DNA of 64,000 bases, from contig NIVC01002688.1 of assembly GCA_002269645.1 (NCBI GenBank), forward strand, positions 85,717 to 149,716. The letters are read 5' to 3'. Shown piece by piece: positions 51,400 to 55,121 of the stretch. The DNA is from Macrostomum lignano. Taxonomy: Eukaryota. The notes beneath the pieces are model-generated. The model made no database searches and had not been told where the DNA came from. It saw nothing but the letters and a program-made list of their open reading frames with translations. How positions within the stretch are numbered: the stretch's first letter is position 1; every line of letters starts with the position of its first letter. The position numbers and the translations under genes are program-made.

Positions 51400-51640
51400 T
51401 TCCTTTCTGTTTTACTTCCTCAATCTGTTTTGATTTTCTAGAAAACGTCTTTACTAAAAACTCTGTAGCTGGAGGACAAATGCTGGTAGAGAAACCAAAT
51501 CCAGTGAAAAGAGTTGTATTGAGTAATAAGGAGATTCACGAGATTGTGCTACAGTTTGAGACTGAAGATGGGGTGGGTGTTGATTTCAACGGTGAAGAGT
51601 TTGTATTGAAGTTGATCATTGAGAGAATGTGCGAAAAAAA
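51400..51640 (+). pseudogene. Possible C-terminal fragment of a Polinton minor capsid (penton) protein
   Basis: GQMLVEKPNPVKRVVLSNKEIHEIVLQFETEDGVGVDFNGEEFVLKLII resembles my recollection of the Polinton mCP C-terminus (xxE-P...I-x2-I-x-I-x4-DG-x2-DFxGE-x3-L-x-L); N-terminus absent. Confidence 0.45.
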
Positions 51641-51641
51641 A

Positions 51642-51881
51642 TTACAATTGCCTAATGATTTCTGCAAAGTTATAGTAGCTGTCGTAATCTGTTACGTAGG
51701 TTACTCCATACTTAAGAAACCAGTGGCTTTGGAGAGCTTGATTAATATTAGGGACATTGATATCAACGTCGGGCCAATATTTTCTCATGTTCTCACTGCA
51801 TTCTAGTTTGCATTGGTACTTACTCTTGTAATTAGGCTCGGGGGCTTTGTAATAAGAACCTGGAGAGACGATTGGAAGCAT
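51642..51881 (-). CDS. 79-aa hypothetical protein, left copy, in the terminal region of the Polinton-like remnant
   Basis: Paralog of 54879-55121 with many synonymous differences; AAAAAATG start context. Confidence 0.65.
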   Translation of the reverse strand: MLPIVSPGSYYKAPEPNYKSKYQCKLECSENMRKYWPDVDINVPNINQALQSHWFLKYGVTYVTDYDSYYNFAEIIRQL

Positions 51882-52538
51882 TTTTATTGAGAATTAAATT
51901 TTTTTCGGAGGATGAGCACCCTGCGCTGATGATTTAAAGTCTTTGGGATCTGGTTTCGCGAATTGAATGTGGGGAGAAGAATGCAGATTCTTTTCTGATT
52001 GTTTCGAAGATGCTATGGGTGGATGTCAGGGGATTATGTAGGACACCTGTTATGCTCTGATTCTGTCAGGGGATAATATGGATCAGCGGTGTCGGAACAT
52101 ATTTTAAAGTGGGGGGGGGGGCTATTGATGGGAGGGCACATTGCAAATAATTTCTTTAAATCTAAAGGCACCCAACTCCGGCTGTTATGTCAGTTTGTGA
52201 AATTGTGACAACCAGGCCAATATTCAATTTTGAGTTGGAAGTAGCCAAAAGTCTGAAAATGTTTAAACTTTTAACTGATTCAAACATTGCGCAACTAATT
52301 GCGAAAACTGTATTATCAATTTTATATAGTAAAATATCTGAAATGAATGAAAATTGCAAAGGCAAGACCAGTAATTTTCTGGATCTCTTGGCTGCCTCCA
52401 TCAGCTCCTATTCATTCTTTTAGCTGACGGCATTTTTGAAATTTTGGTTGCTGCGCCAGCAGCGGTTGAGGTCTTGGGATTGCGGCGCACTCGGAATTTC
52501 GATCAGAGACGCCAAAGTGAAAGGGCTGAATACTAAAA

Positions 52539-52640
52539 CAGGGGTTGGCAAACTCCGGCCTGAGGGCCAAATGTGGCCCGCAAAGCCTCTCTATCCGGCC
52601 CTTGGGTCCTTTGAATCTTCGCAATAGCAATCCGGCCCGC
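52539..52640 (+). mobile_element. 5' end of a Charlie-type hAT MITE nested in the larger hAT element
   Basis: CAGGGGTTGGCAAACTCCGGCCTGAGGGCCAAATGTGGCCCGC, typical of Charlie-group MITE termini; other end not found. Confidence 0.55.
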
Positions 52641-52649
52641 TCGATGTTT

Positions 52650-53720
52650 GTGTCTCTTCTCAGCTCTCTCTTCCCTCACCTCTCTCTTCTCATTTTCTCT
52701 CCTGTTCTCTCCTCTCCTCTCTCTTCTCCTCTCATCTCCTCACCTCTCTCCTCTCCTCACCTTTCTCCTCTCCTCACCTCTCTCCTCTCCTCTCTCCTTT
52801 CCTCTCCTCTCCTCTTCTCTCCTCTCTTCTCTCCTCTCCTCAACTCTCTCATCTTCTCTCCTCTCTACTCTCCTCACCTCTCTCTCATCTCCTCTCCTCT
52901 CTCCTCTCCTCTCATCTTTTCTTTCCCCTCCTCGTCCTCTCCTCTCCTCCCCTCTCCATTCCTCTCTTTCTTTCCTTTCATCTCCTCATCTCTCTCCTCT
53001 CCCTTTTCTCTCCATTCTCTTCTCCCTTCCCTCTTCTCTCCTCTTCTCTCCTCTCTCTCCTGTTTCGTCTCTCCTCTCCTCATCCATCTCTTCTCTCCAA
53101 TTTTATCTCTCTTCTCGTCTACTCTCTTCTCCTTTATTCCTTCATCTCTCCTCTCTCCTCTCCTCTCCTCTCCTCTCCTCTCCTCTCCTCTCCTCTCCTC
53201 TCCTCTCCTCTCCTCTCCTCTCCTCTCCTCTCCTCTCCTCTCCTCTCCTCTCCTCTCCTCTCCTCTCTCCTCTCCTCTCCTCTCCTCTCCTCTCCTCTCC
53301 TCTCCTCTCCTCTCCTCTCTTCTCTCCTTTCCTCTCTCCTCTCATCTTTCCTTTCCTTCTCCTTCTCCTCTCCTATTATCTCCTCTCCTCCCCTCCCCTC
53401 TCCTCTCTTTCCTCTCATCTCCTCACCTCTCTCCTCTCATCTCTCCTCTACTTTTCTCTCCATTATCTTCTCCCTTCCCTCTTCTCTCCTCTCTCTCCTA
53501 TTTCGTCTCTCCTCTCCTCATCCATCTCCCCTCCCCTCATCCATCTCCCCTCTCTAATTTTATCTCTCTTCTCGTCTACTCTCTTCTCCTTTATTCCTTC
53601 GCCTCTCCTCTCTCCTCTCCTCTCTCCTCTTATCTTGTCTTTCCTTTCCTTCTCCTCTCCTCGCCTCTCCTTTCTCCTACGCTCATATAATTCTCTACTC
53701 TATTCCCTATCCTCTCTCCC
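52650..53720. repeat. CT-rich low-complexity tract with (CCTCT)n core
   Basis: Almost pure pyrimidine strand; pentamer array at about 53145-53315. Confidence 0.97.
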
Positions 53721-54878
53721 TTCTCTTGCCTGCAGTCAGGGACTCCTGGGCGCGTTTCGCTTACGGGGCCCAGCGAAGCAAACCCAGAAGGGAAGTCATT
53801 GCGCCACGCTAGGTTCTCAATCTGGCCCTTAAGGTGAAAAGTTTGCTGACCAATGCACTAAAAGCACTAGGCTTATGCACATTAGATAAAAACTGTAGTG
53901 GAATGGAGATTGAGAACAACATGAACTACGAGTTATTATTTCAGCTGATACCCCCCTTAGCTTCCAAGACTCAGAAAAGCCAGAGCCCAAAACCAGTCGA
54001 CACTTGTTTAAAATTCAAAAAGGGCACTTGCTGGATCATGCTAAAAAGTGGGGGGCTTCAGCCCCCCTGTGCCCCCCCCCGGTTCCGACACCCCTGATAT
54101 GGATGGATTTAATGGGATTATGTTCGAAGTTTTCGGAGTAAGTGCGACCCCCCTTTTTTCTGATTCTGTCGGAAATAATATGGATGGATTTAATGGGATT
54201 ATGGAGGACGTTAAAAAATTGTCCCAGAAGCCCCCTCATACTTCTCTCCCCTCTCCTCTCGATCCTCTCTCCTCTCTCTCTCCCCTCTCTAACATCTTCC
54301 CCTCCTCTTCCTCCTCTCTCCTCTTACTTTTCTCTCTCCCCTCTTTTCTCTTCCCTCTCTCCCTTCTCTCGTCGCTCCTCTTCTCTCCCCTTATTTTCTC
54401 CCAATTATCTCTCGCCAGTAGAAGGCATGAGGGGGCTTTTGGGACAAAATTTTTCACGTCCTCCATAATCCCATTAAATCCATCCATATTATCCCCGACA
54501 GAATCAGAAAAAAAGGGGGGTCGCACTCGCTCACAAAACGTCCTCCATAATCCCATTAAATCCATCCATATTATCCTTGACAGAATCATGAAAAAGGGGA
54601 GGGGCCGCACTTGCTCCGAAAACTTCGAACATAATCCCATTAAATCCATCCATATTATCCCTGACAGAATCAGAGCAGGTGTCCACTGATACCTGTTATG
54701 CTCACTGACACAGACATAATCCACTGACATCCACCCATAGCATCTTCGAAACAATAAGAAAATAATCTGCACTCTTCTCCCCACATTCAATCCGAAGCGG
54801 CGAAACCAGATCCCAAAGACTTTAAATCATCAGCGCAGGGTCCTTACCCTTTGAAAAAAAATTAATTTCTCAATAAAA

Positions 54879-55121
54879 ATGTTTCCAGTTGTCTCTCCAG
54901 GTTCCTATTATACTCAGCCTCATCCATTGTACAAATCCAAGTACCAATGCAAACTAGAATGCAGCGAATACATGAGAAAATATTGTCCCGGCATTGATAT
55001 CAATGTCCCTAATATTAATCAAGCACTTAAATCTCACTGGTTTCATAAGTATGGAGTAACCTACGTAAAAGATTACGACAGCTACTATAACTTTGCAGAA
55101 ATCATTAAGCAATTGCGTTAA
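54879..55121 (+). CDS. 80-aa hypothetical protein, right copy, within the putative Polinton TIR
   Basis: MFPVVSPGSYY...NFAEIIKQLR; conserved with 51642-51881; AATAAAAATG context. Confidence 0.65.
   Translation: MFPVVSPGSYYTQPHPLYKSKYQCKLECSEYMRKYCPGIDINVPNINQALKSHWFHKYGVTYVKDYDSYYNFAEIIKQLR

What the first reader, a model, noticed from the sequence alone, without database searches (positions are those of the whole stretch)
51640..55121. Two Polinton-like termini facing each other across a 170-bp CT-rich spacer
Removing the hAT insert exposes a diverged palindrome about 0.6-0.7 kb per arm. The inner ends are AGAGAAGTATGAGGGGGC (left, reverse strand, 54247) and AGTAGAAGGCATGAGGGGGC (54417). 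Both start with AG, as Polinton TIRs are known to do. The arms are clearly non-identical, so this looks like two related elements integrated 170 bp apart, suggesting target preference for CT-rich DNA or for existing Polinton ends.
Basis: partly seen in the sequence, partly recalled or inferred. Interest (0 to 1): 0.78.

Follow-up and report, generated by a model that had tools for sequence, protein, structure and literature searches.

The report
Two Polinton ends sharing a MITE
A young virus-like transposon (Polinton) landed by ordinary integration inside a small CT-rich transposon that already sat beside the broken end of an older relative, so the apparent palindrome is a pile-up of mobile DNA and not a sign of special targeting.

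Summary
The inverted arms are real (87-90% alike), as are the 2.0-kb hAT insert and the 169-bp CT-rich gap. The right arm (54417-55115) is the terminal repeat of a ~16-kb Polinton. The window ends at its contig's end, but contig C2192 carries the far terminal repeat (693/699 identical) followed by the predicted 6-bp duplication CTCGCC. Contig C571 holds the empty site: no right Polinton, no hAT insert, one CTCGCC. The 'spacer' is the interior of a common CT-rich hAT-type MITE whose 3' end lies beyond the insertion. The left arm is only a ~2-kb Polinton end, cut off mid-gene at 50254. Its 'AG' start occurs nowhere else in the genome and may be MITE sequence. Target preference failed the tests: 1 of 77 random ends has a strongly purine/pyrimidine-skewed flank (background 1.3%), 0 of 77 have a facing repeat within 350 bp, and the closest of 14 outward-facing pairs is 9.5 kb apart. 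One residual signal: about 4 of 75 insertions lie in or beside other Polinton sequence away from the ends, and elements cluster at 10-30 kb, roughly five- to tenfold above chance. Verdict: ordinary nested transposon pile-up.

The parts
46429..50203 (-). THAP-domain DNA transposon remnant (P-element-like; label from recall) that the left Polinton fragment abuts; lacks the last ~45 bp of its right end
   Evidence: THAP PF05485 E=7e-14 at 49555-49770; six other copies continue to an end that mirrors 46669-46711, while the window copy stops at 50203
50204..50253 (.). 50-bp palindromic filler at the left breakpoint
   Evidence: self-inverted match 50203-50252, 88%; also present in C571 and C2100
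50254..51640 (+). Sub-terminal block of the left Polinton, with a 5'-truncated ORF (50255-50881, no Pfam match); integrase-proximal end, inverted relative to the right element
   Evidence: 88-90% to blocks lying between the terminal repeat and the integrase in C3080 and C1113, in opposite orientation to the window's integrase; other copies have further coding sequence upstream of 50254
51641..52083 (-). Left terminal repeat, inner part
   Evidence: 86.9% to 54714-55115; 502 matches in 508 columns to C571
52084..54096 (+). Non-autonomous hAT-like insert, 8-bp duplication ATATGGAT (52076-52083, 54097-54104); absent from C571
52539..53855 (+). CT-rich hAT-type MITE nested in the insert; flanking 8-mers match at 7 of 8
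54097..54239 (-). Left terminal repeat, outer part (secure portion)
   Evidence: 89.7% to 54427-54571; 91-94% to its nearest relatives C1391 and C157
54240..54247 (-). Ambiguous 8 bp: eroded Polinton tip or MITE sequence
   Evidence: unique to this locus; edit distance 3, chance level 32-41%
54248..54416 (+). 'Spacer': CT-rich interior of a hAT-type MITE whose 5' half is missing and whose 3' end lies beyond the right Polinton
   Evidence: C571 continues from it into the MITE end; that end matches family copies at 72-80%; copies with both ends are 404-756 bp with 94-99% pyrimidine interiors (5 of 18 loci)
54411..54416 (+). 6-bp target-site duplication CTCGCC of the right Polinton
   Evidence: repeated after the far terminal repeat in C2192 and C5022; single in C571
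54417..55115 (+). Terminal inverted repeat of the right Polinton (699 bp, starts AGTAG)
   Evidence: 693/699 identical to C2192:163375-164073
56748..57596 (-). Phospholipase A2-like domain frame
   Evidence: PF08398 E=2e-13
57279..58315 (+). Retroviral-type integrase, in two frames in this assembly
   Evidence: PF00665 E=7e-9 for the first piece
59193..62770 (+). Family B DNA polymerase, in four pieces in this assembly
   Evidence: PF03175 E=4e-4, below the curated cut-off, for one piece; polymerase motifs in the last piece read by eye
54417..64000 (+). Right Polinton, cut by the contig end; about 16.0 kb in all
   Evidence: contig ends at window 64000; 60880-63999 overlaps the end of C2192 at 98.2%; ATPase, double-jelly-roll capsid and protease-like frames in the distal half on C2192/C5022

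Best explanation
A layered pile-up of mobile DNA. (1) A CT-rich hAT-type MITE was present (shown). (2) An older Polinton came to adjoin its interior in inverted orientation, and a deletion removed most of that Polinton and the MITE's 5' half, leaving a ~2-kb end fused to a THAP transposon remnant (structure shown; order and mechanism inferred). This state is shared with C571. (3) In one haplotype a ~16-kb Polinton of the same family integrated into the MITE remnant by ordinary integrase action, duplicating CTCGCC (shown by the empty site and both junctions). (4) A hAT insert entered the left arm (shown by the empty site; its timing relative to step 3 is unknown). Two ends of one family that face outward automatically read as an inverted repeat. 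The short distance is best explained by chance plus mild regional clustering, with no sequence targeting.
For: Empty site on C571 with single CTCGCC and single ATATGGAT. Far repeat plus CTCGCC plus the same flank on C2192 and C5022. MITE end and family. Left fragment truncated mid-ORF at 50254. Random ends: 1 of 77 skewed flanks against 1.3% of 2,138 background windows, 0 of 77 facing repeats, flanking 6-mers unbiased in base content. 0 of 14 outward-facing pairs closer than 9.5 kb among 364 ends. Random expectation of a pair within 1 kb is about 0.04, rising to a few tenths with the observed clustering (the scaling is my inference).
Against: Both halves of the right element are not on one contig; the link rests on a 3.1-kb overlap at 98.2%, the shared duplication and C571. 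C5022 has the same far end but a different near end. Nesting in other Polintons (about 4 of 75 events) and pairs within 30 kb (8 against about 1.3) exceed random placement, so insertion is not uniform. The left junction cannot be assigned to integration or deletion.
Confidence: 0.85

Rival explanations
1. Polintons of this family prefer DNA that already holds Polintons (self-nesting or local hopping), and this locus is one case of it.
For: 5 of 77 random flanks are Polinton-like (4 events; one pair has a matching 6-bp duplication; one is a 106-bp partial match) against a genome share I estimate at 0.5-0.7%; binomial P about 0.002 at 0.7%, 0.06 at 2%. 8 of 14 outward pairs lie within 30 kb against about 1.3 expected. 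13 of 24 same-strand neighbours lie within 17 kb.
Against: The nested sites lie in internal regions, never at ends. Survival bias (insertions tolerated in junk DNA), duplicated haplotype contigs and an underestimated genome share give the same pattern. About 95% of events are not in Polinton DNA.
Confidence: 0.1
2. The integrase prefers CT-rich (polypurine/polypyrimidine) DNA.
For: This locus; one of 77 random ends lies 10 bp from an (AG)n tract.
Against: 1 of 77 is the background rate (1.3%); in the first sample only the two ends at this locus were extreme among 67, and flanks were if anything less skewed than background; 1 of 77 flanks touches a hAT MITE end.
Confidence: 0.02
3. The palindrome is one structure: a concatemer or circle junction of a replicating element, a fold-back element, or an assembly artefact.
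For: C5022 shows that chimeric copies exist in this assembly.
Against: Arms differ by 10-13%, whereas the right element's own two repeats differ by 0.9%. The spacer is MITE DNA that continues in C571 without the right element. The left junction is present in two contigs.
Confidence: 0.03

Closest known systems
Polintons/Mavericks (adintovirus-like endogenous elements of animals)
   Same: Long terminal inverted repeats, perfect 6-bp duplication, rve integrase, family B polymerase, packaging ATPase, double-jelly-roll capsid, protease-like frame, about 16 kb (vertebrate mean about 17 kb, PMC8097293 passages); PLA2-like gene as in Alpha-type virion modules (PMC8502044 passages).
   Different: Family end motif is AGTAGA, not the exact (AG)3 or (AGT)2 motifs given for vertebrate Mavericks in PMC8097293. 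Polymerase and integrase frames are in pieces in this assembly. The left element is a ~2-kb remnant.
C. elegans eri-6/7 locus with several Polinton insertions (bioRxiv 10.1101/2024.01.15.575659, passages)
   Same: Several Polinton copies and leftover terminal repeats at one locus, polymorphic between haplotypes, with deletions.
   Different: There the repeats flank host exons and were co-opted for trans-splicing; here they flank 169 bp of MITE and no host exon or function is evident.
Non-autonomous hAT elements (MITEs)
   Same: Short terminal repeats beginning CAGGGG, 8-bp duplications, nested insertion (assignment to hAT from these hallmarks is recalled knowledge).
   Different: Interior is a degenerate CT tract; the copy forming the spacer has lost its 5' half.

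Membership tests
Polinton/Maverick (right element) | Long terminal inverted repeats at both ends | tested here: met
   699 bp, 693 identical, far end on C2192; the two ends are on different, overlapping contigs
Polinton/Maverick (right element) | Perfect 6-bp target-site duplication | tested here: met
   CTCGCC at both junctions, single in the empty site
Polinton/Maverick (right element) | Retroviral-like integrase | tested here: met
   PF00665 E=7e-9, above cut-off
Polinton/Maverick (right element) | Protein-primed family B polymerase | tested here: met
   PF03175 E=4e-4 on one of four pieces, below curated cut-off; motifs by eye
Polinton/Maverick (right element) | Virion module: ATPase, major capsid, protease | tested here: met
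   Pox_A32 E=8e-7, DJR-like PF21738 E=3e-8 (C5022 frames), Peptidase_C5 E=5e-4 below cut-off (C2192 frame); atlas look-alikes are viral capsid-like clusters but recognition was low
Polinton/Maverick (right element) | Simple AG-type end motif | tested here: met
   AGTAGA end; 442 exact family ends genome-wide
Polinton/Maverick (right element) | Present activity or virion formation | not testable with these tools
   only recency is shown: empty site and 0.9% divergence of the two repeats
Polinton/Maverick (left element, as an intact insertion) | Intact terminus | tested here: inconclusive
   3 edits in the last 10 bases, unique in the genome, within chance for CT-rich DNA
Polinton/Maverick (left element, as an intact insertion) | Second terminal repeat, duplication and core genes | tested here: not met
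   Polinton sequence stops at 50254; no other repeat copy or core gene to the left in the window. It is a Polinton-derived fragment.
hAT non-autonomous (insert 52084-54096) | 8-bp duplication and short terminal repeats | tested here: met
   ATATGGAT twice, single in C571; ends match 14 of 15
hAT non-autonomous (spacer MITE) | Terminal repeats and 8-bp duplication | tested here: inconclusive
   3' end present and family-like; 5' end not found in the window or in nine stretches of C571 and C2100; 2 of 18 family loci show an 8-bp duplication within one mismatch
hAT non-autonomous (both) | Link to an autonomous hAT transposase | not tested
   no search made

The most novel reading that the evidence does not exclude
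This Polinton family actively homes to regions that already hold Polintons (self-nesting or short-range re-integration at five to ten times the random rate), and this head-to-head pair is the extreme tail of that behaviour, caught as a presence/absence polymorphism.
Probability: 0.1. Interest if true: 0.55.

Novelty: new member of a known kind. Interest (0 to 1): 0.17.

Why it matters
As it stands it is an ordinary nested insertion. Its modest value: a clean polymorphic Polinton insertion with an empty site, in a genome with about 440 intact ends, shows recent Polinton integration in an animal and gives a data set for insertion-site studies. If the excess of Polinton-in-Polinton insertions reflects targeting and not survival bias, it would be a site-selection rule for Polinton integrases; my four literature searches (listings only) showed no such report, which does not prove there is none.

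Tried and rejected
CT preference: rejected. Recurrent facing pairs: rejected for intact ends and, within 350 bp, for eroded partners. A second subfamily with the left arm's end: rejected, 2 matches, both this locus. Finding the MITE's 5' half or its 8-bp duplication left of the fragment: nothing found; a first strict motif scan of family copies found almost nothing and was repeated loosely. Reading on past the window: impossible, the contig ends. C5022 as the full-length copy of this insertion: rejected, its near end has another flank and only 87.5% identity. C571 as a product of recombination between the left arm and the far repeat: rejected by inference, since that would remove the spacer, which C571 keeps. 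The base next to each end (A 120, C 105, G 121, T 96) was not used as a test because the two ends of a duplication read opposite strands. No Pfam match for ORF 50255-50881 or for 47134-47625. Earlier scan findings: none returned. Sequencing runs were not examined.

Full report
Observation. The window is eukaryotic: a cluster of ABCA-like transporter gene copies on the left (label from the translations and one weak Pfam hit) and a Polinton on the right. The inverted match is real: 51645-52039 pairs with 54714-55115 at 86.9% and 54097-54239 with 54427-54571 at 89.7%. The left arm is split by a 2,013-bp insert (52084-54096) with the exact 8-bp duplication ATATGGAT, which holds a second, CT-rich insert (52539-53855). 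The gap between the quoted ends is 169 bp.

The right element. Inward of 54417 lie a PLA2-like frame, an rve integrase and a family B polymerase; integrase and polymerase are in pieces in this assembly. The window ends at the end of contig C2688. A genome search with the arm gave 700 candidates, 40 scored. C2192 also ends inside the element and overlaps window 60880-63999 at 98.2%, giving about 16.0 kb in all. The distal half encodes a packaging ATPase, a double-jelly-roll capsid and a protease-like frame (3 of 9 distal frames scanned gave these). The two terminal repeats differ at 6 of 699 sites. These features match the definitions I read as passages in PMC8097293 (repeats, 6-bp duplication, about 17 kb) and PMC8502044 (integrase, PolB, ATPase, protease, PLA2X).

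The empty site. Contig C571 is a second copy of this locus, about 99% alike over the left arm and spacer (7 mismatches and 1 gap in 828 columns). It lacks the hAT insert (one ATATGGAT) and the right Polinton: it matches the window to 54416 exactly, has one CTCGCC, and runs on into the same flank that follows the far repeat in C2192 and C5022. So the right Polinton is a recent, polymorphic integrase insertion.

The spacer. About 100 bp past CTCGCC the flank ends in a hAT-type terminus. That end matches many other loci at 72-80%. Five of 18 family loci showed both ends within the DNA fetched; they are 404-756 bp with interiors 94-99% pyrimidine, and 2 of 18 have an 8-bp duplication within one mismatch. 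The spacer is therefore MITE interior. Its 5' half was not found in the window or in nine stretches of C571 and C2100.

The left element. Polinton sequence extends to 50254, where it stops inside an ORF that other copies continue. In C3080 and C1113 this block lies between the terminal repeat and the integrase, in the orientation opposite to the window's integrase, so the arrangement is head to head. To the left is a 50-bp palindrome and a THAP-domain transposon that lacks the last ~45 bp found in six other copies: a deletion junction (inference). The claimed AG tip is doubtful. The 20-mer occurs only here and in C571; 66 of 67 ends begin AGTA (most loci were found with queries containing the intact end); and 3 edits from the family end are reached by 32%, 35% and 41% of positions in three sets of CT-rich MITE sequence. 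Erosion of a true tip and a deletion joining repeat base 11 to the MITE cannot be told apart.

Targeting tests. Four patterns counted 442 intact ends and listed 396. For contigs up to C3569, where all four lists are complete (364 ends; the 32 listed beyond were dropped), neighbours are 83 inward pairs (mostly 14-17 kb), 14 outward pairs, and 24 same-strand pairs; the nearest outward pair is 9,540 bp apart. This list cannot see eroded ends such as the left arm. So I drew 80 of the 395 other listed ends at random and fetched 350 bp of flank; 77 remained after merging duplicates. One has a flank at least 80% purine or pyrimidine (an AG microsatellite), against 1.3% of 2,138 background windows; none has a facing repeat; one touches a hAT MITE end. 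In the earlier non-random set only this locus's two ends were extreme among 67. Thirteen pairs of those ends had complementary outer 6-mers, as 6-bp duplications predict.

Result against pure chance. Five of the 77 flanks are Polinton-like, four events in about 75, one a clear nested insertion with matching duplication, one only a 106-bp match; none is at a terminal repeat. With a genome share of 0.5-0.7% (my estimate from 220-350 elements of 16 kb) P is 0.0006-0.002; at 2% it is 0.06. Eight outward pairs lie within 30 kb against about 1.3 expected (rough; contig ends and duplicate haplotypes ignored). Insertions thus cluster regionally. Survival bias in repeat-rich DNA is the plain reading; active self-targeting is the bold one. 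One pair within 1 kb is expected at about 0.04 under uniform placement and a few tenths with this clustering, so this locus needs no special mechanism.

Comparison. Several Polinton copies and leftover repeats at one polymorphic locus are described for C. elegans eri-6/7 (bioRxiv 10.1101/2024.01.15.575659, passages). Four searches (listings and abstract starts only, no supplements) showed no paper on a Polinton preference for CT-rich DNA or for Polinton ends. The labels hAT, MITE and P-element-like rest on recalled hallmarks, not on a library search. Earlier scan findings: none.

Verdict. Observation partly confirmed; right element a new member of a known kind; left element a remnant; spacer a MITE interior; targeting not supported. 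Interest 0.17.

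Noticed in passing
L035/L036 (C5022:9788-25403): An element with this insertion's far end and flank but a different near end (87.5% alike, other flank, no matching duplication): assembly chimera or recombinant between two Polinton copies.
   Followed up: partly
L221 and L250 (C1684:3566-19326): A 15.8-kb Polinton inserted in the protease region of another Polinton with a matching 6-bp duplication; further Polinton-like flanks at L224, L258, L260, L063, L064.
   Followed up: partly
L119/L120 (C1462:193603 and 209385): Two terminal repeats 15.8 kb apart on the same strand whose outer 6-mers are complementary: one end plus its flank appears inverted.
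   Followed up: no
G000 C289:58540-59181, C3455:15370-16011, C124:22981-23698: Inward-facing end pairs only 641-717 bp apart: probable miniature Polinton derivatives.
   Followed up: no
G000 C716, C2787, C819, C33, C986: Contigs with four or more intact Polinton ends: regional clusters.
   Followed up: partly
window 50254-51640; L113, L119, L121, L152, L163: Sub-terminal blocks and repeat lengths differ among family copies (about 370 to 870 bp; alternative blocks between repeat and integrase), suggesting module swapping near the ends. ORF 50255-50881 has no Pfam match.
   Followed up: partly
window 1-40000: At least three copies of an ABCA-like transporter gene in alternating orientation, with a 1.6-kb block 98.9% alike in inverted orientation (19095-20669 and 26924-28498) and a 650-bp block at 95-97% in all three, amid 70-85% elsewhere: possible gene conversion.
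   Followed up: no
window 46429-46696: The left end of the THAP element is expanded into 12 tandem copies of its own 22-bp terminal motif.
   Followed up: no
window 47681-48972, 49050-49290, 50038-50087: Further inserts in the THAP element: a 1.3-kb piece and a 50-bp palindrome arm absent from C571 and C2100, and a fold-back element absent from other family copies.
   Followed up: no
L075 (C2100:174542) and L071 (C571:476978-478923): At window 51564-51575, C571 has a 1.9-kb insert with a 12-bp duplication, and C2100 leaves the alignment at almost the same base and does not return within 30 kb.
   Followed up: no
window 55377-55820: 140-bp tandem repeat of 18-bp palindromic units just inside the right terminal repeat.
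   Followed up: no
window 21769-24759, 42204-42824, 43503-44516: Long, near-perfect minisatellites (39, 15 and 18 bp units) in the gene cluster.
   Followed up: no
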